Source: an uncultured Candidatus Saccharibacteria bacterium
GTDB taxonomy: Bacteria > Patescibacteriota > Doudnabacteria > UBA920
Assembly: GCA_964505635.1 (NCBI GenBank)
Contig: CAZDIP010000004.1
Span: 7,198 to 71,197, forward strand
DNA: 64,000 bases
Reading direction: 5' to 3'
The notes under the pieces are model-generated. The model ran no database searches. It had not been told where the DNA came from and saw only the letters and a program-made list of their open reading frames with translations. This document shows positions 11,946-21,478 of the stretch, in pieces (the first letter of the stretch is position 1; each line of letters starts with the position of its first letter). A program made the translations under genes and the position numbers.

Positions 11946-13430
11946 ATGGATAAATTTTATTTAACCACAACTTTACCTTATGTTAACTCCAGTCCTCATT
12001 TGGGATTTGCTTTGGAATTAGTGCAGGCTGATACTATAATTCGCTACCAAAAACAACTCGGTAAAGAAGTGTTTTTTAATACCGGAACCGACGAACACGG
12101 GATTAAAATTTTTCAAAAGGCTCAGGAGCAGAATAAGCAAGTTCAGCAGTACGTGGACGAATATGCTGATAAATTTAAAAATTTAATGCCTCTGTTAGGT
12201 ATTTTGCCGGAAATTCACTTTATTCGTACAACCGATAAGAATCATATTAAAGCCTGTCAGGAGTTTTGGAAGTTGGTGGATAAAAACGGGTATATTTATA
12301 AAGCAGAATATAAGGTTAAATATTGCGTGGGCTGTGAGTTGGAAAAAACCGAAAGTGAATTAGACAAAGAAGGTCAGTGTTTGGTTCACCCACATTTAAA
12401 TATAGAAATACGCGAAGAGGAAAACTATTTTTTTAAGTGGAAAGAATTTGAAAAGCCGTTATTGGAATTATATGCGAAATATCCCGACTTTGTGGTGCCG
12501 GATTTTCGTTTTAATGAAATAAAAGAATTTGTAAAAAGAGGCCTAAAGGATTTTTCTATTTCCCGAAGAAAAGAAAAAATGCCCTGGGGCGTCCCCGTGC
12601 CGGGCGACGAAGAACATGTTATGTACGTCTGGTTTGATGCTTTGATAAATTATGTTTCAACTCTTGGTTGGCCGGAAAACAAAAAAGATTTTCAAGAGTT
12701 TTGGGGAAATGTCGTGGATCCCAGGGCAGTTCAAATTGCAGGCAAAGATAATTTACGGCAACAGTCGGCTATGTGGCAGGCCATGCTTATGGCTGCGGGG
12801 CTGCCCACCTCAAAACAAATTGTTATTCACGGATTTATAAATAGCGGCGGGCAAAAAATGTCCAAATCTCTTGGCAACGTGGCCGACCCTTATGAAATAA
12901 TTTCCGCGCTTTTAGAAAAAGGCCTTAGTAAAGAGCAGGCAACTGAAGCCTTGAGATTTTATTTACTCCATGACATTCCTACTTTTGAAGACGGAGATTA
13001 TACCTGGGAAAAATTTACGGAAAGTTATAATGCGTTTTTGGCCAATGGGATTGGCAATTTAACAAGCAGAATTTTAAAAATGGCGGTTAACTTAGGAATA
13101 AAAATAGATTTATCTAAGCAAAATATTAATACAAACAATACAGAATATTCTTTTAGATGGTTTATGGATAACTATAGACTAAATGATGCCATTAATGATA
13201 TTTGGCAAAGAATAAGGAACATGGACCAATCTATTCAAACCAAAGAACCATTTAAATTGGCTAAGGTGGATATTGTTAGAGCTGAGGCCGAAGTTACTAT
13301 TTTATTGGAGGCGCTTTATAGTATTGCCTATGATTGTCAAATGTTTATTCCTGTAAGCTCTGAAAAAATTTTAGAGGCATTAAATGAGCCAACTTTAGAA
13401 AATATTCCAAAGTTGTTTCCAAGAATATAA
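11946..13430 (+). CDS. metG: Methionyl-tRNA synthetase
   Basis: Class-I HIGH-region variant (NSSPHLGFA), CxxC knuckle (CVGCE), KMSKS, anticodon-binding helical domain; 494 aa. Confidence 0.9.
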   Translation: MDKFYLTTTLPYVNSSPHLGFALELVQADTIIRYQKQLGKEVFFNTGTDEHGIKIFQKAQEQNKQVQQYVDEYADKFKNLMPLLGILPEIHFIRTTDKNHIKACQEFWKLVDKNGYIYKAEYKVKYCVGCELEKTESELDKEGQCLVHPHLNIEIREEENYFFKWKEFEKPLLELYAKYPDFVVPDFRFNEIKEFVKRGLKDFSISRRKEKMPWGVPVPGDEEHVMYVWFDALINYVSTLGWPENKKDFQEFWGNVVDPRAVQIAGKDNLRQQSAMWQAMLMAAGLPTSKQIVIHGFINSGGQKMSKSLGNVADPYEIISALLEKGLSKEQATEALRFYLLHDIPTFEDGDYTWEKFTESYNAFLANGIGNLTSRILKMAVNLGIKIDLSKQNINTNNTEYSFRWFMDNYRLNDAINDIWQRIRNMDQSIQTKEPFKLAKVDIVRAEAEVTILLEALYSIAYDCQMFIPVSSEKILEALNEPTLENIPKLFPRI

Positions 13431-14089
13431 TGACTGTAGAAGGATTGCACGTTAACGGGCCAGAAAATAGAAATTTTTTAGCAGATGCAGAAGCAAGGCT
13501 TTTAACTTTGGGTTTAAGCTTAAAAGATTTGGCTAGATATGATCATGTTTTAGACATAGGCGCAGCAGACTGTGCTATTGAGAGAGCTTCTTTATCTTTG
13601 GGTCGGAGGAATGTAACTTCAGTAGATAGAAAATTTAGTTTGACAGAGACAGAGCTAGCGGGTTTAAATGTTATGAAAATTGATGCAGCGGATCTTAGTT
13701 TGTCTGAAAACTCAGTAGATATAATTTTAGTGACCTCGAGTGCTTATAAGTATACCAGGACTGAAAAAGAGACTTTAGAAATTTTGTTTGGATTAAATAG
13801 AGTTTTAAGAATTGGAGGTAAACAACTAGTTCATCCCGCGCGATTTGGGCATATTGTGGAGGATTTAAAAAGAATTTACCCGGAATTTGATCGGGCAGTA
13901 GAAACTGAGAGGCACAAGAGGTCAGCGGAACAAGCTAAAATAATAATTCATAATAATACCATTGCTGATCAACAAACTTTAAGTTATTTAAGAGAAAATA
14001 ATATTTTTGCTAGAAAGCTTAAAAGCCATGAACCTCATCCTTTGCCCAGTTTTGAGCATTATTTAGAAATCCCAAAGTTTAAATGTTAA
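13430..14089 (+). CDS. Class I SAM-dependent methyltransferase-like protein (219 aa)
   Basis: Motif I VLDIGAADC, acidic beta2 end, post-motif VDIILV...LNRVLRIGGKQ. Paralogous in layout to the 20819..21478 product. Confidence 0.5.
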   Translation: MTVEGLHVNGPENRNFLADAEARLLTLGLSLKDLARYDHVLDIGAADCAIERASLSLGRRNVTSVDRKFSLTETELAGLNVMKIDAADLSLSENSVDIILVTSSAYKYTRTEKETLEILFGLNRVLRIGGKQLVHPARFGHIVEDLKRIYPEFDRAVETERHKRSAEQAKIIIHNNTIADQQTLSYLRENNIFARKLKSHEPHPLPSFEHYLEIPKFKC

Positions 14090-14928
14090 TTGACACCCAT
14101 GCCCATGTGAATTTTAAGAGTTTTAAAGACGATGCCAGAGAAACTTTGCAGCGGGCTTTAGACGCGGGTGTGAATGTTATAAATGTAGGTTCGCAAATAG
14201 ATACCTCAAGGCAGGCTGTGGAATTAGCAAATAGTTTTGAAAAAGGAGTATACGCTGTGGTGGGTCTGCATCCGGAACATACCCATTCGCAATATGTGGA
14301 CGAGGAAGAAACGCACTTTTTGTCCAGGGAAGAAAATTTTAATTACGATGAGTATAAAAAATTGGCGCAAAATGAAAAAGTTGTTGGTATAGGGGAGTGT
14401 GGGTTGGATTATTATAGATTGCCCGATGACAAAGGCTTTCATGCCGAAGTTAAAGAAAAACAGAAAGCAGCCTTTAGGTTGCAACTGAAATTAGCTAAAG
14501 AATTAAACAAGGCCTTGGTAATTCATAGTAGACCAGAAAAGGGCAATGAAGAATTGTTTGATGATTTAATAAATATTTTAGATACCGAAGGAACACCAAA
14601 TTTAAGGTTTGAGGTGCACAGTTTTACAGGTAGCCCTAGAGCTTTAAAAATGTTTTTAGACCGAGGCGCGTATGTTTCTTTTAATGGTATAATTACATTT
14701 GATAAGACTGGGAATATGGAAGAATTGGTGAAAATGGCGCCTATGGACAGGATAATTTTAGAGACCGATTGCCCGTATTTAACACCTGTGCCTAATAGGG
14801 GAAAAAGAAATGAGCCAGCATACGTCCGTTTTGTGGCGGAGCATGTGGCTCGGGTGAAGGGGCTTAAGGCTTCTGAAGTCGCAGAGGCGACCACCGGGAA
14901 TGCGAAAGGATTGTTTCGGCTGAGTTGA
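14083..14928 (+). CDS. tatD: TatD family metal-dependent hydrolase/DNase
   Basis: MLIDTHAHVNF N-terminus, GECGLDYYR, HSR..E, ETDCPYL motifs. Confidence 0.88.
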   Translation: MLIDTHAHVNFKSFKDDARETLQRALDAGVNVINVGSQIDTSRQAVELANSFEKGVYAVVGLHPEHTHSQYVDEEETHFLSREENFNYDEYKKLAQNEKVVGIGECGLDYYRLPDDKGFHAEVKEKQKAAFRLQLKLAKELNKALVIHSRPEKGNEELFDDLINILDTEGTPNLRFEVHSFTGSPRALKMFLDRGAYVSFNGIITFDKTGNMEELVKMAPMDRIILETDCPYLTPVPNRGKRNEPAYVRFVAEHVARVKGLKASEVAEATTGNAKGLFRLS

Positions 14929-15141
14929 TTAGGTTCCGCAGGCTCCTTCTTCATGAAGGGTCGACAAACCAGTTTTGTTGGGAAGTTCTGGTTGGTTCAA
15001 TACAACTCCTGGGTTTAGGACGAAAGACAGTTGCCCGTCCTTAATCGTCAATATTCCAAGAATTGTACTACTGCTCAGGGCAGTAACTTGCAAGAGTCCT
15101 TCCTGTTCGACTAGAGCTCTCAAACCTGCTTTGTTTAGCAT
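14929..15141 (-). CDS. Orphan small protein (70 aa) in a GC-elevated segment, strong RBS
   Basis: Minus-strand ATG at 15141-15139 with AGGAGG 11 nt upstream; local GC about 50% versus about 40% elsewhere; no recognisable family. Confidence 0.35.
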   Translation of the reverse strand: MLNKAGLRALVEQEGLLQVTALSSSTILGILTIKDGQLSFVLNPGVVLNQPELPNKTGLSTLHEEGACGT

Positions 15142-15169
15142 TTATATCGAGCCTCCTTGCGAAGAACTC

Positions 15170-15189
15170 TATCATCATCATCATCATCA
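15170..15189. repeat. (CAT/ATC)6 trinucleotide microsatellite in a divergent intergenic region
   Basis: catcatcatcatcatcat run; produces the spurious His5 ORF on the plus strand. Confidence 0.9.
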
Positions 15190-15258
15190 AAAGTCAATCG
15201 TATGTGTTATCCTAAATCGACCTTAGACGGGATCCAGCATAAAGTTATTCATATTATG

Positions 15259-15297
15259 GATTCCGGATATCTCGCTTCAGGAGATTCCGGAATGACA
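15259..15297. promoter_or_regulatory. Near-perfect palindrome ggattccggatatctc...gagattccggaat between divergent genes (possible operator)
   Basis: Inverted repeat arms tccggatatctc / gagattccgga immediately upstream of the NUDIX gene start. Confidence 0.35.
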
Positions 15298-15313
15298 AAG
15301 TAGTTAATTATGT

Positions 15314-15880
15314 ATGCAAAAATATTTTCCTAAAAATGAGAATGAAGAAAAATCTTTTGTTGAAGTTTTTGGTCTGAATCCAGGACAACCTTTGGATCCA
15401 TATTTTGAGGCGGATAATGCTGATGCAATGCCAAGACTGGATTTGCCAACGGTTTGTATAAACGCGGTCAGCAGTATAATAAAGCATCATAGTGAAAATA
15501 AATATTTAGTGGTTAAACATCACAGAAGCAGTGTTGACGGTTATTTTTCGGTTTCCGGCGCGGTTGATTTGGGCGAAAGTCTGCAGCAGACAGCGGCCAG
15601 GGAAATTGCCGAGGAAACCGGCTACAAACACCTAAAGTTTGTAAGCAGTTTGGGAGAACCGATATATTTTAAATATTTTAAACTTAGTAAAAATGAAAAC
15701 CGTTTGCTTAAATTAACGCCGTTTTATTTTCAAACTTTAGATGACGAAGTTGAACCTATGACTGAATATGAAAAAGCCAAACAGGAACCAGTTTGGCTTA
15801 AAGAACCAGACATAGAGCAATTTTTAAGAACCAGGCCTTTTCATAGAATTTTTTGGGAAAGAATGAAAGAATTGCAATAA
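15314..15880 (+). CDS. NUDIX hydrolase
   Basis: Nudix box GAVDLGESLQQTAAREIAEETGY (GX5EX7REUXEEXGU). Confidence 0.8.
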   Translation: MQKYFPKNENEEKSFVEVFGLNPGQPLDPYFEADNADAMPRLDLPTVCINAVSSIIKHHSENKYLVVKHHRSSVDGYFSVSGAVDLGESLQQTAAREIAEETGYKHLKFVSSLGEPIYFKYFKLSKNENRLLKLTPFYFQTLDDEVEPMTEYEKAKQEPVWLKEPDIEQFLRTRPFHRIFWERMKELQ

Positions 15881-15985
15881 TTTTTTTAAGCTAAATTTTG
15901 TTTATGAAAAAATATGAAGCCTCAAAAGTAGAAAAAAAATGGCCCTCCTTCGCTAAAGCTTCGGAGGGTAAACAAAAGTTTTAAT

Positions 15986-18900
15986 ATGAAGAAATATAAT
16001 CCACAAGAAATAGAAAAACGTTGGCAGGAGTTTTGGGAAACGAAAAAGGTTTTTCATGCAAAAGATAATTCTAAAAAGCCCAAGAAATTTATTTTGGTGG
16101 AATTTCCGTATCCCAGTGGCGCAGGACTGCACATGGGTCATTTACGGCCTTATGTAGCGGCAGATGTTTACGCCAGGTATAACCGCATGAAGGGGTTTGA
16201 AACGCTTTTTCCAATTGGCTGGGATGCTTTTGGTTTGCCCGCGGAAAATTACGCGATAAAAATGGGAGTACATCCTTCTATAACTACCAAAAAAAACGTT
16301 GCGAATGCAAAAAAGCAAATGCAGAGCTGGGGACTCAGTTTTGACTGGAGTAGGGAAGCAAACACCACTGACCCGGACTATTACAAATGGACACAGTGGT
16401 TGTTTTTACAGTTTTATAAAAAAGGTTTGGCTTTTGAATCTACCGGACTTATAAACTGGTGCCCTAAGGACAAAACCGGCCTGGCAAACGAAGAAGTTAT
16501 AGACGGCAAATGCGAACGGTGCGGAACAGCGGTAGAAAAAAAAGAATTGCGCCAATGGTATTTAAAAATTACAGAATATGCTGAAAAGTTATTAGATGGT
16601 CTTAAGTCGTTAGATAAATGGCCGGAAGCAGTAAAACTTCAGCAGGAGAATTGGATTGGAAAAAAGACCGGAACAAATATTACTTACGGGTTTGATGAAA
16701 AGCCAAATTTTTTATTGCTTCATGGCAGAGGTAGCTCTCCTGAGAAAGCATTTTTGCCGTGGATGAAATATACCTTGGAAAGACGAGGTTATTTTGTTCA
16801 GGTTCCGGCAATGCCCGGCGGAGATGAACCGAACGATTTAGAGCAAGCTGAACACGTCTTAAAAAATTGCAAAGTAGATGAAAATACAATTGTTTTAGGG
16901 CATTCGTTTGGTGGGATTGTGGCATTAAGGCTTTTGGAGAAAGGAGTAAAAGTAAAAAAAGTATTGTTGGCAGGCACTCCTTTTTTGGGCAGATTTTCAG
17001 ACGGTAAGGTCAGACAAAGCGTGGCAGATGCTATTAAACGAGGTTTTAATTTTGGCAAAATAAGAAAACACGCCCAAAGTTTTATCTCTATTTCCGATGA
17101 GAGTGATCATATTGTGCCTAATTCAGATGGAAAAAAGCTTGCCGAGAATTTAAACGGACTGTTTGTAAGTTTTAAAGCCGGCAGTCCGCATTTTAATGAC
17201 CAACAGGAAAGTGGGTTGTTAAAAATTTTAGACCCTCAAATTACCTGCTTTACCACACGCCCGGACACAAACTTTGGAGCAACGTTTGTAGTTTTGGGAC
17301 CGGAGCACCTGCTGTTAAAGGACCGCAACTTGCTAAATATAGATGAAAAACACTGGAAGGAGATTGTTAAATATCAGCAAAAAGTAAAAAATACTCCCGA
17401 AGAAGAACGCTTAAAAGAGGGTCGTAAAAAAACCGGTGTGTTTACGGGTTTGTATTTAATAAATACCCTGAATAATTATAAAATGCCTCTGTATGTTTCC
17501 GATTACGTTTTAGGCAACGTTGGTACTGGAGCTGTGGTTGGAGTGCCCGGGCACGACAAAAGGGATTTTGAGTTTGCTCAGGTTTTTAAAATTCCCATTG
17601 TAAGGGTTGTGCAAAAAGACGCCAACGACGTTGCGCCAATAGAAAAAATAGAGCAGGTTCAGGAAGAAGAAGGTACAATGGTAAATTCTGAATTTTTAAA
17701 CGGGCTAAATATTCACGAAGCGACCGAAAAAATAATGGATTACATGGAGGCTCAAGGTTATGGCAAAAGAGTTACCAATTACAAACTTCGCGATTGGGTG
17801 TTTAGCAGGCAGCGCTATTGGGGCGAGCCTATTCCTCTTATTCACTGCGAAGACTGCGGAGTGGTGCCAGTGCCGGACAAAGACTTGCCGGTGAAATTAC
17901 CAAATGTAAAAAAATACGAGCCGACCGGCACAGGCGAGTCTCCTTTGGCCGACATTAAAAATTGGGTTAAAACCAAATGCCCTAAGTGCGGCAAATTAGC
18001 CTGGAGAGAAACTAACACTATGCCTCAGTGGGCAGGTTCAAGCTGGTATTGGCTTCGGTATGCTGACTCAAAAAATAAAAAACAATTTTCATCTCTTGCT
18101 AAGCAAAAATATTGGACGCCCGTAGACGTTTATTTTGGCGGGATGGAACATACAACCTTGCATTTGCTATATAGCCGTTTTTGGAATTTATTTTTATTTG
18201 ACCAAGGTTTAGTGTCATCCCGCGAGCCATATGCTTTACGCAAGCCTCACGGAATAGTTTTGGGTCCGGATGGGGAAAAAATGTCCAAAAGTCGGGGAAA
18301 TGTAGTTGATCCGCAAAGCATAGTTAAACAATATGGGGCCGATGTTTTAAGAATGTATGAAATGTTTTTAGGTCCGCACGAAGCCATGGTGGCTTGGAAT
18401 GACAAGGGGATTGTGGGCGTCGCTAGATTTTTAGACAGAGTTTGGAATTGGGTGAATGAAATCGCGGAAGCGCCCCATAACAAAGTCACAAGTGACAAGT
18501 CACAAGTGACAAGAGATACCGAAAAGGTTGAGAGAGAGCTTAATAAACTTATAAAAAAAATTACAGTTGATATAGAAGGCTTTAGTTTTAATACCTGTAT
18601 AAGCGCATTTATGGAATTTCATAATGCGATTAAGGATGACTTTATTACACTGGAAAGCGTAAAAAAATTTTTATTGGTTTTGTATCCCTTTGCTCCACAC
18701 ATTGCCGAAGAACTTAATTTAATTTTACCCGCAGTAACCTTAAATCGTGACCGCGAAAGAAGGTTACAGTCTTTACAGTTGGAAACTTGGCCTATGTTTG
18801 ACGACTCAAAGCTTATAGAAAGTCAGGTTACGGTAGTTGTGCAAATAAACGGCAAAGTCAGGGGCAAGATTGTTGTTCCAAAAAATGCTCTGGAGCAAGA

Positions 18901-19009
18901 TGTTCAGGCTGAAGCTGTTAAACTGGAAGTAGTAAAACAGGCTTTGGTGAACGAGAGCATAAAACGCACAATTTATATTAAAGACAGACTCATCAATTTG
19001 GTAATTTAA
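15986..19009 (+). CDS. leuS: Leucyl-tRNA synthetase with an inserted alpha/beta-hydrolase-like domain (residues ~239-417) upstream of the CP1 TTRPDT motif
   Basis: HMGH (PYPSGAGLHMGH), zinc-binding knuckle, ENWIG, TTRPDT, GTGAVVGVPGHD, KMSKS (GEKMSKSRGN), C-terminal tRNA-binding domain; 1007 aa. Insert has HG oxyanion-like LLLHGRG, nucleophile elbow GHSFGG, and downstream D...H. Confidence 0.9.
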   Translation: MKKYNPQEIEKRWQEFWETKKVFHAKDNSKKPKKFILVEFPYPSGAGLHMGHLRPYVAADVYARYNRMKGFETLFPIGWDAFGLPAENYAIKMGVHPSITTKKNVANAKKQMQSWGLSFDWSREANTTDPDYYKWTQWLFLQFYKKGLAFESTGLINWCPKDKTGLANEEVIDGKCERCGTAVEKKELRQWYLKITEYAEKLLDGLKSLDKWPEAVKLQQENWIGKKTGTNITYGFDEKPNFLLLHGRGSSPEKAFLPWMKYTLERRGYFVQVPAMPGGDEPNDLEQAEHVLKNCKVDENTIVLGHSFGGIVALRLLEKGVKVKKVLLAGTPFLGRFSDGKVRQSVADAIKRGFNFGKIRKHAQSFISISDESDHIVPNSDGKKLAENLNGLFVSFKAGSPHFNDQQESGLLKILDPQITCFTTRPDTNFGATFVVLGPEHLLLKDRNLLNIDEKHWKEIVKYQQKVKNTPEEERLKEGRKKTGVFTGLYLINTLNNYKMPLYVSDYVLGNVGTGAVVGVPGHDKRDFEFAQVFKIPIVRVVQKDANDVAPIEKIEQVQEEEGTMVNSEFLNGLNIHEATEKIMDYMEAQGYGKRVTNYKLRDWVFSRQRYWGEPIPLIHCEDCGVVPVPDKDLPVKLPNVKKYEPTGTGESPLADIKNWVKTKCPKCGKLAWRETNTMPQWAGSSWYWLRYADSKNKKQFSSLAKQKYWTPVDVYFGGMEHTTLHLLYSRFWNLFLFDQGLVSSREPYALRKPHGIVLGPDGEKMSKSRGNVVDPQSIVKQYGADVLRMYEMFLGPHEAMVAWNDKGIVGVARFLDRVWNWVNEIAEAPHNKVTSDKSQVTRDTEKVERELNKLIKKITVDIEGFSFNTCISAFMEFHNAIKDDFITLESVKKFLLVLYPFAPHIAEELNLILPAVTLNRDRERRLQSLQLETWPMFDDSKLIESQVTVVVQINGKVRGKIVVPKNALEQDVQAEAVKLEVVKQALVNESIKRTIYIKDRLINLVI

Positions 19010-19669
19010 ATGTTAGTTTTAAGTTATAATAAACATAGCCATCAGCAAATAATAGCATTATGCGTGAAAGCTTTGAAAGCGGGAAAAGCCGTGGTATACC
19101 CAACCGACACCTCTTATGGTTTAGCTGTTGATGCAACAAATGAGAAAGCTATAAAAAAGCTTTATTCTATTAAAGAAAGGGGTTTTAAAAAACCCGTCCA
19201 TGTTATTATCCCCTCAAAAAATTTTGGTAAGAAATTGGTCAAATGGGGTAAAATGGCGGAAAAACTCTCAGAAAAATTTTGGCCAGGCGCTTTAACTTTA
19301 GTTTTACCCATCTTGTCTAAAAATAAAACACTGAAAAGAATATGCGGTGGTACTAAGTATTTAGGACTCAGGTATCCAAATAATAAAGTCGCTTTAGAAT
19401 TAAGTAGTTTACTAAAAAAACCGATTACGGCTACAAGCGCTAATCCCTCCCAGCATTTGTCGGGTGGATTTGATAGCTATTCAGCCGCGGACGTGATTAA
19501 ACAGTTTGTAGAACAAAAATTTAAACCGGATATAATTATTGATGCCGGGAAATTAAAGAAAAGGAAACCTTCTACATTGGTTAAAATTACGGAAAATAAC
19601 ATTGAAATTTTAAGGCAAGGGCCGGTTTCAAAAGCAGCAATAAAAAAAGTTTTAAAAATTAAAAAATAA
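19010..19669 (+). CDS. tsaC: L-threonylcarbamoyladenylate synthase (YrdC/Sua5 family)
   Basis: YrdC fold motifs KAVVYPTDTSYGLAVDA...KPVHVII...WPGALTLVL...SAN. Confidence 0.8.
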   Translation: MLVLSYNKHSHQQIIALCVKALKAGKAVVYPTDTSYGLAVDATNEKAIKKLYSIKERGFKKPVHVIIPSKNFGKKLVKWGKMAEKLSEKFWPGALTLVLPILSKNKTLKRICGGTKYLGLRYPNNKVALELSSLLKKPITATSANPSQHLSGGFDSYSAADVIKQFVEQKFKPDIIIDAGKLKKRKPSTLVKITENNIEILRQGPVSKAAIKKVLKIKK

Positions 19670-19673
19670 AATA

Positions 19674-20822
19674 GTGCTTCTTAATTTTCATTTACCTAGT
19701 TATTTTTCCAGAAATGTCCGCAGGGAAATAAGCGAGCTTTATGCCCACTCAGCTATTGTTAATATGGCAAGCTCAATGATGCTTTTGTTTGAGCCCATTT
19801 TTTTGTATGCGGTTTTGGGTTTTTCCGTCAATCAGGTTTTGTTGTTTACCGCTATAGTTTACGCTGTTTATATTGTCTGTATTCCGTGGGGTGGCAAGAT
19901 GGCAAGCATGTACGGGTACAAACACGCAATTGCCATGTCTGTACCTTTTCAAATTATTTATTGGGCAATGCTTATAGCTTCCCAGCAGAATGCTTCTTTG
20001 GCATTTGCGGCCGGGATTTTTTATGGCCTTTCTAAAAGTCTTTATTGGCCGGGTTTCCATTCGCTTATGGCTCGTTACGCTGACCAAGGCCAGGTGGGAA
20101 GGGAATTTAGCGTAGTTTACGCTCTTATTAGTATTACTCATATAGTAGGTCCTTTTTTTGCCGGGTGGATTTCGCAACATTACGGATTTACCGCATCTTT
20201 TTTAACCGTTTCCATTTTACAAGGCGCAAGCTTATTGCCTTTGTTTAAAGCCAAGGAAATTTTTATACCGAAAGTATACAAATACAGCCAGACTTTGGAG
20301 TTGTATAGAACTTATCCCAGGAAATTTTTTGGCTATTTGGGTTTTGGGGAAGAGATGTTGGTTTTAAACATCTGGCCCGTGTTTATTTATATTGTTGTAA
20401 GGAACTATCAAGAAGCCGGGCTTTTGGCTACGGGCGCGAGTCTTTTAGCCGCTTTGCTTGCTTTAATTGTTGGTAAGGTGACTGACCAGTATTCCAAGAG
20501 AATTTTAATTAAGCTCGGAGCGTTTTTTACTTCTTTAGTATGGGCATTCCGGTATCTGGCCACCAGCGCTTCCAGCGTATTTGCCGTAGACGCTTTTTCC
20601 AGAACCAGCAAAGAAATGGCTTTTATACCCATTTCTACGGTAACGTATATACGGGCGGAAAATACCCACGTAGTGCCTTATGTGGTATTTTTTGAGCAGT
20701 CCCTAGCTATAGGAAAGCTTATTGCCTGCATTTTGGGGATCGCGGTTTTTGCGTTAACAGGTAGTTTTGTGGCACTATTTATATTAGGCGCGCTATTTAG
20801 TTTATTGTATATGCTTATATGA
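19674..20822 (+). CDS. Polytopic membrane protein, MFS-like transporter (382 aa)
   Basis: About 10-12 hydrophobic helices throughout; no catalytic motifs. Confidence 0.5.
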   Translation: MLLNFHLPSYFSRNVRREISELYAHSAIVNMASSMMLLFEPIFLYAVLGFSVNQVLLFTAIVYAVYIVCIPWGGKMASMYGYKHAIAMSVPFQIIYWAMLIASQQNASLAFAAGIFYGLSKSLYWPGFHSLMARYADQGQVGREFSVVYALISITHIVGPFFAGWISQHYGFTASFLTVSILQGASLLPLFKAKEIFIPKVYKYSQTLELYRTYPRKFFGYLGFGEEMLVLNIWPVFIYIVVRNYQEAGLLATGASLLAALLALIVGKVTDQYSKRILIKLGAFFTSLVWAFRYLATSASSVFAVDAFSRTSKEMAFIPISTVTYIRAENTHVVPYVVFFEQSLAIGKLIACILGIAVFALTGSFVALFILGALFSLLYMLI

Positions 20823-21478
20823 GAAAAAATTCGGAAACAAATATTTATAGGAAAGACTTGGCTCACGCAATCCATAATTCAAGAGTTGATGACGCGGAAA
20901 AAGCGTATAGGTTGTCCAGAACAAAAACAGGTTATGAATTTGGGTTGGAACTAGACGATTCCTTATACGATTACATTTCCAATTTATCTTCAAAAAAAAT
21001 ATTAGATATTGGAATTGGTTCGGGAAAAGCCTTGAGTGATTTTTGCAAGGATGCCAAATTAAGGGATAAGGGGTTTGTTTTTGAGGGAACTTACTTGACC
21101 AGAAAAGTATTAAGGGATGAAATTAGGTCGGGTGTTAAATTGTATCAAACACCTGTAGAAAGATTAAAAGGAGTGCCGGAAAGTTCATATGGTGCAGTCT
21201 TAGCTTATTTATCGGTAGCATATTCTCGGTTTCCTGATTCTGCAGTGGAAAGTATTGATCGAGTGTTGGTTTCAGGAGGTATTTTTGTCGGTAAGTTTAG
21301 TTATGTTAATCATAAATCTGTTCGATCAAAAGGATCACAAACTGAATTTTTCGCGCCACATTTTAAAAAGAGGGGTTACGTAGTTTTAGAAAAGTACGGT
21401 TATCTGCTTAAGGCAGTAAAGCCACCATTTAATGCAGAAGAAGTAAGAAAAATCTTACCTTTATATTCAATAGGATAA
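20819..21478 (+). CDS. Class I SAM-dependent methyltransferase-like protein (219 aa)
   Basis: Motif I ILDIGIGSGKA; IDRVLVSGGIFVGKF; same length and layout as the 13430..14089 product. Confidence 0.5.
   Translation: MRKNSETNIYRKDLAHAIHNSRVDDAEKAYRLSRTKTGYEFGLELDDSLYDYISNLSSKKILDIGIGSGKALSDFCKDAKLRDKGFVFEGTYLTRKVLRDEIRSGVKLYQTPVERLKGVPESSYGAVLAYLSVAYSRFPDSAVESIDRVLVSGGIFVGKFSYVNHKSVRSKGSQTEFFAPHFKKRGYVVLEKYGYLLKAVKPPFNAEEVRKILPLYSIG

What the first reader, a model, noticed from the sequence alone, without database searches (positions are those of the whole stretch)
16700..17236. LeuRS carries an inserted alpha/beta-hydrolase (serine-hydrolase-like) domain just upstream of the CP1 editing motif
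Between the ENWIG segment and the TTRPDT threonine-rich motif, leuS encodes about 180 extra residues. E. coli LeuRS has only about 17 aa there. The extra segment has the hallmarks of an alpha/beta hydrolase: HG-type oxyanion segment LLLHGRG, nucleophile elbow GHSFGG, then a conserved Asp and His (SDESDHIVP), resembling the YdeN/RBBP9-type small serine hydrolases. The stretch between TTRPDT and the GTGAVVGVPGHD motif (~110 aa) also looks shorter than a full CP1 editing domain. A cis-acting esterase fused into an aminoacyl-tRNA synthetase could replace or supplement hydrolytic editing of mischarged tRNA-Leu, or deacylate something else. I do not recognise this architecture from described LeuRS enzymes.
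Basis: partly seen in the sequence, partly recalled or inferred. Interest (0 to 1): 0.82.

Follow-up and report, generated by a model that had tools for sequence, protein, structure and literature searches.

The report
Serine hydrolase nested inside leucyl-tRNA synthetase
The leucyl-tRNA synthetase of this ultra-small (Patescibacteria) bacterium carries a complete, apparently active RBBP9/YdeN-type serine hydrolase spliced into a hairpin of its proofreading domain; related genomes carry the same enzyme at three or four other positions in the protein or as a separate gene right next to leuS, so it looks like an undescribed accessory enzyme of this synthetase.

Summary
leuS (15986-19009) encodes a 1007-aa bacterial LeuRS. 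Residues 238-417 (nt 16697-17236) form a complete alpha/beta hydrolase that replaces a 4-residue hairpin turn of the CP1 editing domain. The AlphaFold model (pLDDT 96) matches human RBBP9 and B. subtilis YdeN (TM 0.8). Ser and His are invariant in 117 of 117 LeuRS inserts.

CP1 is full length and its editing residues are invariant, so nothing is replaced. The insert is not an assembly artefact. The window's hydrolase subtype occurs in 54 Patescibacteria species genomes, always inside LeuRS, at three sites in that scan. A fourth site (B) carries a more divergent copy in other relatives.

Six of six informative free-standing homologues lie beside a leuS gene. One sits in a cluster with a YbaK-like deacylase and an archaeal-type leuS. 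A NUDIX domain behaves likewise: it is inserted in relatives and is a separate gene upstream of leuS here.

Best reading: a LeuRS-dedicated alpha-aminoacyl ester/amide hydrolase that works autonomously beside CP1 as extra quality control or clean-up. The link to LeuRS is strongly supported. The substrate is inferred. I found no published description.

The parts
15986..19009 (+). leuS, bacterial-type leucyl-tRNA synthetase, 1007 aa, with HMGH (16130-16141) and KMSKS (18278-18292)
   Evidence: (TIGR00396 970 bits, cutoff 548)
16661..16696 (+). First strand of the CP1 entry hairpin (KKTGTNITYGF-D), which leads into the insert through a 3-4 residue linker
   Evidence: (strand E226-236, then hydrolase strand E241-245)
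16697..17236 (+). Inserted RBBP9/YdeN-type alpha/beta serine hydrolase domain (residues 238-417), here called site A
16721..16726 (+). His246-Gly247, the HG oxyanion-hole motif (LLLHGRG)
   Evidence: H in 106/117 and G in 111/117 site-A inserts
16898..16915 (+). Nucleophile elbow GHSFGG; Ser307 codon at 16904-16906
   Evidence: Ser 117/117; aligns with RBBP9 Ser75
17105..17107 (+). Asp374, the triad acid
   Evidence: D 99 and E 13 of 117; D 74/74 in free-standing homologues; aligns with RBBP9 Asp138
17189..17191 (+). His402, the triad base (SPHF)
   Evidence: 117/117; aligns with RBBP9 His165
17237..17785 (+). Rest of the CP1 editing domain (residues 418-600), full length, with the threonine-rich motif TTRPDT (17252-17269) and GTGAVVGVPGHDKRD (17522-17566)
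   Evidence: PF13603, 1.4e-49; invariant columns
17606..17677 (+). Site B, a short CP1 surface loop here. In relatives it holds NUDIX, SAM-methyltransferase, HAD, an unknown 130-aa domain or a second hydrolase
17855..17863 (+). Site C (HCEDC-GV-VPVP, zinc knuckle), empty here. It holds the hydrolase in P0043, P0079 and P0087/L047
18461..18538 (+). Site D, a low-confidence linker in the anticodon-binding region, empty here. It holds the hydrolase in the closest LeuRS relatives, P0271/L020 and L012
   Evidence: (pLDDT below 50 at 832-835)
15314..15880 (+). NUDIX hydrolase gene directly upstream of leuS. It is the free-standing counterpart of the NUDIX domain inserted at LeuRS site B in relatives
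   Evidence: 30-35% identity over about 150 aa, E 1e-18 to 1e-24; PF00293

Best explanation
Residues 238-417 are a folded, catalytically competent RBBP9/YdeN-family serine hydrolase with the triad Ser307-Asp374-His402 and the oxyanion motif His246-Gly247. The domain is nested in the entry hairpin of the CP1 editing domain of a normal bacterial LeuRS whose own editing site is intact.

It belongs to a hydrolase lineage that is a dedicated partner of LeuRS in Patescibacteria. Related genomes carry the same enzyme at one of four LeuRS surface loops, or as a separate gene abutting leuS, or not at all. It therefore works as an autonomous module whose exact position does not matter. It is not a geometrically coupled replacement for CP1.

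Inferred mechanism: like RBBP9, it attacks the carbonyl of an alpha-aminoacyl group that has a free amine. It would hydrolyse aminoacyl esters or amides arising around LeuRS. Candidates are mischarged or stray aminoacyl-tRNA after release, or other aminoacyl adducts made from reactive Leu-AMP. This would be a second layer of quality control or clean-up, often paired with a NUDIX hydrolase.

Shown here: the fold, the conserved triad, the intact CP1 and the genomic coupling to leuS. Inferred: that the enzyme is active, and what its substrate is.
For: Fold and family:
- AlphaFold2 pLDDT 95.9.
- Foldseek top hits are RBBP9 7OEX/2QS9 and YdeN 1UXO at TM about 0.8.
- The profile hits YdeN at E 7e-32 and RBBP9 at E 7e-26.

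Selection on catalysis:
- Ser307 and His402 are invariant in 117/117 site-A inserts.
- Asp374 is D or E in 112/117.

Intact host:
- CP1 aligns over its full length to T. thermophilus LeuRS.
- Its editing residues are invariant in 80 sequences.
- The full-length model has pLDDT 89 with 3-4 residue linkers.

LeuRS specificity:
- All 54 close relatives of this hydrolase subtype in GTDB species genomes lie inside LeuRS: about 51 at site A, 2 at site D and 1 at site C.
- The LeuRS most like the window's (92-93% identity in the body) carries the hydrolase at site D instead of site A.

Neighbourhood:
- Free-standing homologues P0122, P0144, P0151, P0155 and P0163 lie 2-36 nt from a leuS that has no hydrolase insert (P0155's carries a NUDIX insert), in several different genomic contexts.
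- P0133 lies in a hydrolase-hydrolase-YbaK-like-Ham1 cluster ahead of an archaeal-type leuS.

Chemistry of the nearest characterised relative:
- RBBP9 removes N-terminal hydrophobic or aromatic residues, needs a free alpha-amine, and was judged likely to cleave amide, ester or thioester bonds (PMC8866121).
- It was identified as a valacyclovir-activating enzyme (Shenoy 2020, cited in PMC7730578).

Related hydrolases are also inserted in ValRS, AlaRS and PheRS-beta.

The NUDIX parallel:
- A LeuRS-type NUDIX is inside LeuRS in 15 of 54 loci.
- It is a separate gene upstream of leuS in this window.
Against: - No activity or substrate has been measured.
- Sequence identity to RBBP9 is only about 20%. 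RBBP9's alpha-amine anchor Glu108 and part of its hydrophobic cage fall in a poorly alignable lid region, so substrate inference by homology is weak.
- CP1 is already fully equipped, so the need for a second deacylase is unexplained.
- Many close LeuRS relatives (25 of 120) carry no hydrolase insert, so the function is dispensable. Their flanking genes were examined in only two cases.
- The wider family is also inserted in UvrB, SecA, Der GTPase and TsaD. It is fused to adenylate kinase, Ham1, an HD domain, glyoxalase and S51 peptidase.
- More distant free-standing members (P0181, P0219) are not next to leuS. The family as a whole is therefore not restricted to LeuRS.
- I could not obtain model coordinates, so I do not know how the active site is oriented relative to the tRNA path.
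Confidence: 0.55

Rival explanations
1. Leucine-supplying aminopeptidase. The domain clips N-terminal Leu or other hydrophobic residues from imported peptides, and is co-expressed or fused with LeuRS as the preceding step of the same pathway in an amino-acid auxotroph.
For: RBBP9 is an aminopeptidase. Fusion or adjacency of consecutive pathway steps is the classical Rosetta-stone pattern. Relatives occur in ValRS, AlaRS and PheRS-beta, all of which handle hydrophobic amino acids. Some free-standing relatives are fused to S51 peptidase. A role in peptide breakdown would not depend on position, which fits four insertion sites.
Against: This does not explain the operon with a YbaK-like aminoacyl-tRNA deacylase. 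It also does not explain the recurrent pairing with NUDIX. A freely diffusing amino acid gains little from a physical tether. The S51-fused members cluster away from the LeuRS inserts.
Confidence: 0.17
2. Passenger domain. An unrelated housekeeping esterase is merely tolerated in permissive LeuRS loops, and is kept there by genome streamlining with no functional link to LeuRS.
For: The same Pfam family is inserted in UvrB, SecA, Der and TsaD and is fused to several house-cleaning enzymes. LeuRS site B also accepts NUDIX, methyltransferase, HAD and unknown domains. 25 of the 120 closest LeuRS relatives carry no hydrolase insert.
Against: All 54 members of the window's subtype are in LeuRS. 6 of 6 informative free-standing close homologues are next to leuS in different contexts, including an archaeal-type leuS. 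The domain has been placed at four different LeuRS sites rather than in other genes.
Confidence: 0.1
3. In-cis immunity module. The hydrolase, and the NUDIX, methyltransferase and HAD domains at site B, destroy aminoacyl-adenylate-mimicking inhibitors that target LeuRS. This would be analogous to MccF/MccE immunity to microcin C-type compounds (the analogy is from my own knowledge, not from a tool result).
For: Turnover looks cassette-like. Identity of the host body and identity of the insert are almost uncorrelated (Spearman 0.15-0.17, and 0.07 within the window's subtype). For example, P0057 and P0031 have cores 89% identical but inserts 33% identical. Several enzyme types occupy the same loops. 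The family acts on alpha-aminoacyl groups. NCBIfam lists an IleRS with an N-acetyltransferase domain (NF040702), which shows that other synthetases also carry accessory catalytic domains.
Against: There is no evidence for such inhibitors in these habitats. No toxin or biosynthetic genes were seen nearby. Low correlations may partly reflect a star-like phylogeny or differential loss of tandem paralogues such as those in P0115 and P0256.
Confidence: 0.08
4. Selfish mobile insertion. This would be an intein-like parasitic element that homes into conserved sites of essential genes and gives the host no benefit.
For: Presence is patchy among LeuRS that are about 80% identical. The gene is a mosaic of body, CP1 and insert. 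The insertion points are flanked by very conserved motifs.
Against: The triad is invariant in every copy and no decayed copies were seen. There is no endonuclease and there are no intein splice-junction residues. The free-standing version is an ordinary gene in an operon with leuS. The model shows a stably folded domain on short linkers.
Confidence: 0.05
5. One reading: the esterase replaces a degenerate CP1 as the editing site, acting in cis on the tRNA 3' end.
For: The insert sits only a few residues before the threonine-rich motif.
Against: CP1 is full length with all editing residues invariant. The same hydrolase works from sites in the zinc knuckle and the anticodon-binding region, and as a separate protein. 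This is incompatible with a fixed cis geometry.
Confidence: 0.03
6. Artefact: chimeric assembly or mis-joined contig.
For: None beyond the unusual architecture.
Against: It is a single continuous ORF with even base composition. The same architecture is present in dozens of independent assemblies from NCBI, JGI, ENA and Logan.
Confidence: 0.01

Closest known systems
RBBP9 / YdeN serine hydrolases (Pfam PF06821 Ser_hydrolase, DUF1234; PDB 2QS9, 7OEX, 1UXO)
   Same: Same compact fold of about 180 aa (TM about 0.8). The order is the same: HG motif, G-H-S-x-G elbow, then Asp, then His. Ser307, Asp374 and His402 align with RBBP9 Ser75, Asp138 and His165.
   Different: About 20% identity. Here the enzyme is embedded in another protein rather than free-standing. 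The LeuRS-associated forms have their own motifs (PN, EQ, FDF..IK, EP). They carry small aliphatic residues where RBBP9 has Phe140, and RBBP9's Glu108 anchor is not alignable. The window sequence alone scores just under the PF06821 cutoff.
LeuRS CP1 editing domain (PF13603)
   Same: Both are hydrolytic domains inside the LeuRS polypeptide, and CP1 is itself an insertion into the Rossmann fold.
   Different: The folds are unrelated and CP1 has no Ser-His-Asp triad. CP1 is universal in bacterial LeuRS, whereas the hydrolase is lineage-restricted, dispensable and variable in position. Here CP1 is the host of the insertion, a role reported as never seen in a 2026 survey.
Free-standing trans-editing factors (YbaK/ProXp, AlaX, Dtd)
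   Same: Small autonomous hydrolases genetically associated with synthetases. One relative of the insert lies in the same cluster as a YbaK-like gene. If the best explanation holds, the mode of action is the same: deacylation in trans.
   Different: Different folds and catalytic chemistry. No alpha/beta-hydrolase trans-editing factor is known to me (own knowledge). Activity on aminoacyl-tRNA is untested here.
MccF-type immunity hydrolases against aminoacyl-nucleotide antibiotics
   Same: A serine hydrolase that cleaves an aminoacyl group from a nucleotide-like carrier, which is conceptually close to the detoxification rival.
   Different: MccF belongs to the S66 peptidase family, not PF06821. 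It is not fused to its target synthetase. This comparison rests on my own knowledge and was not tested.
Inteins and other homing insertions in essential genes
   Same: Patchy presence at conserved sites of an essential gene, and a history that disagrees with that of the host gene.
   Different: There are no splicing motifs and no endonuclease. The domain is predicted to stay folded in the mature protein. It has a conserved hydrolase triad and a free-standing operonic form.
Synthetases with appended catalytic domains, e.g. IleRS with an N-acetyltransferase domain (NCBIfam NF040702)
   Same: A class I synthetase carrying an extra small-molecule enzyme domain (one search lists the family).
   Different: A different enzyme class and host. 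That family is curated, whereas no model or description exists for LeuRS plus hydrolase.

Membership tests
Bacterial leucyl-tRNA synthetase (TIGR00396) | Full-length match above the curated cutoff | tested here: met
   970 bits against a cutoff of 548
Bacterial leucyl-tRNA synthetase (TIGR00396) | HIGH-type and KMSKS signature motifs | tested here: met
   HMGH at 49-52 and KMSKS at 765-769
LeuRS CP1 editing domain (PF13603) | Threonine-rich motif TTRPDT and the GTG..HDxRD motif with the conserved Asp | tested here: met
   T423, T424, R425, T428, H523, D524, R526 and D527 are invariant in 80 sequences. PF13603 E 1.4e-49, profile positions 21-185 of 185
LeuRS CP1 editing domain (PF13603) | Hydrolysis of mischarged tRNA-Leu | not testable with these tools
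   Needs a biochemical assay
Alpha/beta-hydrolase superfamily | Alpha/beta-hydrolase fold | tested here: met
   AlphaFold2 pLDDT 95.9. 495 PDB matches at E<=0.001; all 50 listed are alpha/beta-hydrolase-fold proteins
Alpha/beta-hydrolase superfamily | Nucleophile elbow G-x-S-x-G, then acid, then His, in that order | tested here: met
   GHSFGG with Ser307, then Asp374, then His402. Conservation 117/117, 112/117 (D or E) and 117/117
Alpha/beta-hydrolase superfamily | Triad geometry in three dimensions | not testable with these tools
PF06821 Ser_hydrolase (RBBP9/YdeN) | Score above the Pfam gathering threshold | tested here: not met
   The window insert scores 21.0 bits (16.7 within the whole protein) against a cutoff of 22. 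Many homologous inserts and all free-standing relatives examined do pass
PF06821 Ser_hydrolase (RBBP9/YdeN) | Closest fold and profile match is to solved members over the full length | tested here: met
   RBBP9 and YdeN at TM about 0.8 over 180-187 columns, with the next hits at TM about 0.6. Profile E 7e-32 and 7e-26
PF06821 Ser_hydrolase (RBBP9/YdeN) | Alpha-amine-dependent aminoacyl hydrolase activity, as in RBBP9 | not testable with these tools
   RBBP9's Glu108 anchor is not alignable. Needs an assay
Aminoacyl-tRNA trans-editing factors | Deacylation of mischarged tRNA | not testable with these tools
   Only genomic association is available: adjacency to leuS and a YbaK-like neighbour
Inteins | N-terminal Cys/Ser and C-terminal His-Asn followed by Cys/Ser/Thr at the junctions | tested here: not met
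   The junctions read ..TYGFD|EKPNF.. and ..KILDP|QITCF.. with no His-Asn

The most novel reading that the evidence does not exclude
The RBBP9/YdeN-type hydrolase is a previously unrecognised class of synthetase-associated proofreading or clean-up factor with an alpha/beta-hydrolase fold. It would exist interchangeably as a free operon partner of leuS and as a cassette that has been placed repeatedly into at least four LeuRS loops and exchanged between lineages. It would often work together with a LeuRS-specific NUDIX hydrolase. This would make LeuRS of ultra-small bacteria, and possibly organisms with an archaeal-type LeuRS, a three-enzyme quality-control machine.
Probability: 0.3. Interest if true: 0.9.

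Novelty: new variant of a known kind. Interest (0 to 1): 0.8.

Why it matters
Synthetase proofreading is thought to rest on a small set of editing folds: CP1, the AlaX/ThrRS type, YbaK, Dtd and the PheRS B3/B4 domain. An alpha/beta-hydrolase partner specific to LeuRS would add a new one. It would also give human RBBP9 and B. subtilis YdeN, whose physiological roles are still unclear, a testable ancestral context.

The case shows CP1 acting as a host for a further domain. This gives a three-level nesting (Rossmann fold, then CP1, then hydrolase), which contradicts a recent generalisation that CP1 is only ever an insert.

The same enzyme occurs as a separate gene, or at four different positions in the protein, among close relatives. 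That is an unusually clear natural experiment in domain insertion, fission and relocation within an essential gene of Patescibacteria. It could guide the engineering of permissive sites in LeuRS.

If the substrate proves to be aminoacyl esters or adenylate-derived adducts, it would reveal a fidelity or damage-control need peculiar to ultra-small symbionts that live on scavenged amino acids.

Tried and rejected
- Word-indexed homologue search with the insert alone returned nothing, although the identical full protein is in that database. I treat this as a tool limitation, not as absence. The exhaustive search found 1148 relatives.
I used a narrower alignment of the window's subtype (A4), so that census covers this subtype only.
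- The afdb50 fold library was unavailable.
- Pocket comparison with RBBP9 (Tyr99, Leu103, Glu108, Phe140, Leu141) was inconclusive because the lid region aligns poorly. Only the Phe140 position shows a consistent shift, to small aliphatic residues in LeuRS inserts.
- Net charge hints only weakly at proximity to nucleic acid: the window insert is +6, the subtype median +1 and free-standing homologues -4.
- The methyltransferase next to leuS in L001 is not related to the methyltransferases inserted at site B.
- Base composition shows no foreign signature across the insert.
- Five literature searches found no description; one further query failed on syntax. AARS Online does not mention it.
- I considered and rejected an intein (no junction motifs), a CP1 replacement (CP1 is intact) and a misassembly (the architecture recurs).
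- The full-length model could not be used to measure the distance from the hydrolase to the editing site, because coordinates are not exposed.
Full report
**What is there**

The window carries one uninterrupted ORF, 15986..19009 on the + strand, of 1007 aa. It is a bacterial-type leucyl-tRNA synthetase. It scores 970 bits on TIGR00396 against a cutoff of 548. It has the HMGH and KMSKS signatures and a CP1 editing domain (PF13603, E 1.4e-49, profile positions 21-185 of 185).

Aligned to T. thermophilus LeuRS (PDB 1H3N), residues 1-237 match Tt 1-237 and residues 418-760 match Tt 242-579. About 180 residues therefore replace the four-residue turn (Tt 238-241) of the beta-hairpin that leads into the threonine-rich editing motif. 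The inserted block is residues 238-417, nt 16697-17236. Base composition is even across the region.

- The insert alone passes the Pfam cutoff for Abhydrolase_6 (32.3 bits against 26.3). It falls just below the cutoff for PF06821 Ser_hydrolase (21.0 against 22).
- A profile of 33 homologous inserts hits B. subtilis YdeN (1UXO) at E 7e-32 and human RBBP9 at E 7e-26.
- An AlphaFold2 model of residues 233-420 has pLDDT 95.9 and pTM 0.92.
- Foldseek against the PDB puts RBBP9 (7OEX, 2QS9, 9FCR) and YdeN first, at TM about 0.8 over 180-187 columns and E 1e-12. Ordinary esterases follow at TM about 0.6.
- In the full-length model (pLDDT 89, pTM 0.77) the insert keeps pLDDT 93-97. It joins the two hairpin strands through linkers of only 3-4 residues.

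**Catalytic residues**

I extracted 228 complete copies of the domain and aligned them. In 117 inserts at the same LeuRS position:
- the nucleophile Ser307 (GHSFGG) is invariant (117/117);
- His402 (SPHF) is invariant (117/117);
- Asp374 is D in 99 and E in 13;
- the HG oxyanion motif is H in 106 and G in 111.

These residues align with RBBP9 Ser75, Asp138 and His165. No decayed copies were seen.

**CP1 is neither shortened nor degenerate**

The distance from TTRPDT to GTGAVVGVPGHD is 84 aa, against 80 in T. thermophilus. T423, T424, R425, T428, H523, D524, R526 and D527 are invariant in an alignment of 80 LeuRS with and without the insert. The 'replacement of editing' reading is therefore not supported.

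**Distribution in LeuRS**

The full protein retrieves an identical database entry and dozens of LeuRS of 960-1025 aa labelled Candidatus Doudnabacteria or Patescibacteria. Most of them carry hydrolase Pfam hits. Aligning the best 120 shows several discrete insertion points:
- Site A is the window's site. It holds the hydrolase in 87 proteins.
- Site B is a CP1 surface loop at window residues 541-564. It holds NUDIX, a TehB-like SAM-methyltransferase, a HAD phosphatase, an unknown domain of about 130 aa, or a second hydrolase.
- Site C lies between HCxxC[G/A] and VPVPDKDLPV in the zinc knuckle. It holds the hydrolase in P0043, P0079 and P0087.
- Site D lies in the linker of the anticodon-binding region, at window residues about 829-843. 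It appears in P0271 and locus L020. That LeuRS body is the closest to the window's (92-93% identical outside CP1, 86% in CP1). It has nothing at site A and carries a 54%-identical hydrolase at site D.
- Twenty-five of the 120 have no insert.

**A mosaic history**

Among 85 site-A proteins, identity of the LeuRS core and identity of the insert are almost uncorrelated. Spearman is 0.17 overall and 0.07 within the window's subtype. Some pairs are strongly discordant. P0057 and P0031 have cores 89% identical and inserts 33% identical. P0111 and P0033 have cores 61% identical and inserts 85% identical.

The inserts fall into two main subtypes of 37 and 38 members. CP1 itself is bimodal relative to the window (73-86% or 43-47% identity), independently of the insert.

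This fits recombination or cassette exchange between LeuRS genes. Part of the pattern could also come from differential loss of tandem copies, since P0115 and P0256 carry two hydrolases in tandem, or from a star-like tree.

**Not LeuRS-only as a family, but LeuRS-only as a subtype**

An exhaustive profile-free search with the insert found 1148 relatives. Many are free-standing proteins of 175-195 aa. Among the larger hits that are not LeuRS, the domain sits inside:
- ValRS (three proteins), AlaRS and PheRS-beta;
- TsaD, the Der GTPase, SecA and UvrB.

It is also fused to adenylate kinase, Ham1, an HD domain, glyoxalase and S51 peptidase.

However, a scan of 185,579 species-representative genomes with the window's subtype gave 54 true relatives (39-73% identity). 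They come from Doudnabacteria, Kaiserbacteria, Parcubacteria/Paceibacterota, Levyibacteriota, Kerfeldbacteria and similar genomes. Every one lies in a LeuRS ORF: about 51 at site A, 2 at site D and 1 at site C. L057 is a frameshifted leuS.

**The decisive comparative result**

I looked up the genomic context of free-standing close homologues of the insert.

| Protein | Locus | Arrangement |
|---|---|---|
| P0122 (48% identical) | L084 | Ends 2 nt before an insert-less leuS, in the window's own synteny (MetRS, 219-aa gene, TatD, leuS) |
| P0144 | L088 | Starts 2 nt after an 806-aa leuS and overlaps the Sua5/YrdC gene that follows leuS in the window |
| P0151 | L089, L090 | 6 nt upstream of an 809-aa leuS; the protein is on record on 11 contigs |
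| P0155 | L091, L092 | 24 nt upstream of a 957-aa leuS that carries a NUDIX insert, in a different neighbourhood (ribosomal proteins L13 and S9) |
| P0163 | L095 | 36 nt upstream of an 801-aa leuS |
| P0133 | L085 | First of two tandem hydrolases, followed without gaps by a YbaK-like tRNA_edit gene, a Ham1 gene and an archaeal-type leuS |

For the P0133 cluster, the YbaK-like gene has the PF04073 hit and scores E 1e-11 on TIGR00011, below that model's cutoff. The archaeal-type leuS scores 751 bits on TIGR00395 against a cutoff of 648.5.

Two other look-ups fell on contigs too short to be informative. Two more distant family members are not near leuS. One of them lies next to a NUDIX gene.

So 6 of 6 informative close homologues abut a leuS, and none of those leuS genes carries the hydrolase. 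This is the classical pattern of fusion and fission combined with a conserved neighbourhood, which marks functional partners.

**The NUDIX parallel**

The gene directly upstream of leuS in the window (15314-15880) is a NUDIX hydrolase. It is 30-35% identical over about 150 aa (E 1e-18 to 1e-24) to the NUDIX domains inserted at site B of relatives. Other NUDIX genes in the neighbourhood match only at E about 1e-4. This LeuRS-type NUDIX is inside LeuRS in 15 of the 54 species loci. It is a separate gene only in the window.

**How it most likely works**

Shown:
- a folded RBBP9/YdeN-type domain with an invariant triad;
- an intact host enzyme;
- strong genetic coupling to leuS.

Inferred:
- The enzyme does the same job whether it is a separate protein or sits in the editing domain, the zinc knuckle or the anticodon-binding region. 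It must therefore act as an autonomous module on a diffusible or released substrate. It cannot depend on receiving the tRNA 3' end through a fixed cis geometry.
- RBBP9 is the only characterised relative. It removes N-terminal hydrophobic or aromatic residues, strictly needs a free alpha-amine, and was judged able to cleave amide, ester or thioester bonds (PMC8866121). It was also identified as a valacyclovir-activating enzyme (Shenoy et al. 2020, cited in PMC7730578). Valacyclovir is the valyl ester of a nucleoside analogue (my own knowledge).
- The most economical reading combines this chemistry with the YbaK-like neighbour and with relatives found in ValRS, AlaRS and PheRS-beta. On that reading it is an alpha-aminoacyl ester/amide hydrolase. 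It would add a second, CP1-independent layer of quality control or clean-up around LeuRS.
- The NUDIX partner may remove nucleotide by-products.

I give this 0.55. Most of the remainder goes to a leucine-releasing aminopeptidase (0.17), a functionally unrelated passenger (0.10) and an immunity module against adenylate mimics (0.08).

**Comparison with what is known, and novelty**

The components are known: bacterial LeuRS, CP1 and PF06821 hydrolases. Automatic annotation has noticed the combination. One JGI product name reads 'leucyl-tRNA synthetase/predicted alpha/beta hydrolase family esterase'.

I found no description in five full-text searches or in AARS Online. A 2026 survey of domain insertions reports the LeuRS editing domain as insertion-only, with no instance of it acting as a host.

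I classify this as a new variant of a known kind, namely a synthetase with an accessory hydrolytic module. It has three unusual properties: an alpha/beta-hydrolase fold, interchangeable free and inserted forms, and multiple insertion sites.

**Limits**

- No activity data exist.
- Homology to RBBP9 is remote.
- The census covers only the window's subtype.
- The context sample of free-standing homologues is small (six informative cases).
- Correlation statistics are affected by relatedness among the sequences.

Noticed in passing
window 15314-15880 (+): A NUDIX hydrolase gene lies directly upstream of leuS. It is the specific free-standing counterpart (30-35% identity, E down to 1e-24) of a NUDIX domain inserted into the CP1 loop (site B) of LeuRS in 15 of 54 related species. 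NUDIX and the hydrolase also lie side by side without leuS in L098/L099.
   Followed up: partly
window 17606-17677 (site B loop); relatives P0020, P0022, P0065, P0069, P0066, P0104: The same CP1 surface loop in related LeuRS accepts at least five different inserts: NUDIX, a TehB-like SAM-methyltransferase, a HAD phosphatase, a second hydrolase, and a domain of about 130 aa with no Pfam match.
   Followed up: partly
P0145, P0158, P0160, P0169, P0200, P0202, P0168/P0203/P0172: Related PF06821 hydrolase domains are embedded in the Der/EngA GTPase, SecA, UvrB, TsaD, AlaRS, PheRS-beta and ValRS. They are also fused to adenylate kinase, Ham1, an HD domain, glyoxalase and S51 peptidase. The organisms were not identified. 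This points to frequent domain insertion into housekeeping proteins.
   Followed up: partly
P0087, P0079, P0119: A LeuRS sub-clade has TTWPHT instead of TTRPDT, and CTPTHDQRD instead of GVPGHDKRD, in the editing motifs. Its members carry their insert at site C or B rather than A. This may indicate altered editing chemistry.
   Followed up: no
L085 4001-8549: A gap-free co-directional cluster: two tandem Ser_hydrolases, a YbaK-like tRNA_edit gene, a Ham1 pyrophosphatase and an archaeal-type leuS (TIGR00395, 751 bits). The hydrolase-leuS link therefore extends to the archaeal LeuRS type.
   Followed up: partly
window 14929-15313, minus strand: A 385-bp gap between TatD and the NUDIX gene is relatively GC-rich (0.48). 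Its minus-strand transcript (14945-15235) folds better than shuffles (z -3.8; 1 of 200 shuffles fold as well). It has no Rfam match and only a 53-nt match in one related locus, L020. It may be a small structured RNA or a gene remnant.
   Followed up: partly
window 18260-18300 (around residues 760-765): This LeuRS lacks the leucine-specific domain of about 55 aa that T. thermophilus has between residues 580 and 636.
   Followed up: no
window 11946-21478; L001, L002, L084, L088: Conserved synteny: a MetRS-like gene, a 219-aa gene, TatD, a variable slot, leuS, Sua5/YrdC, then an MFS transporter. The variable slot and the flanks collect nucleotide house-cleaning genes (NUDIX, Maf, a YfbR-like HD protein, Ham1).
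   Followed up: partly
The word-indexed protein search returned no hit for the 196-aa insert, although the identical full-length protein (P0001) is in that database. This is a sensitivity gap of the tool for sub-sequence queries.
   Followed up: no
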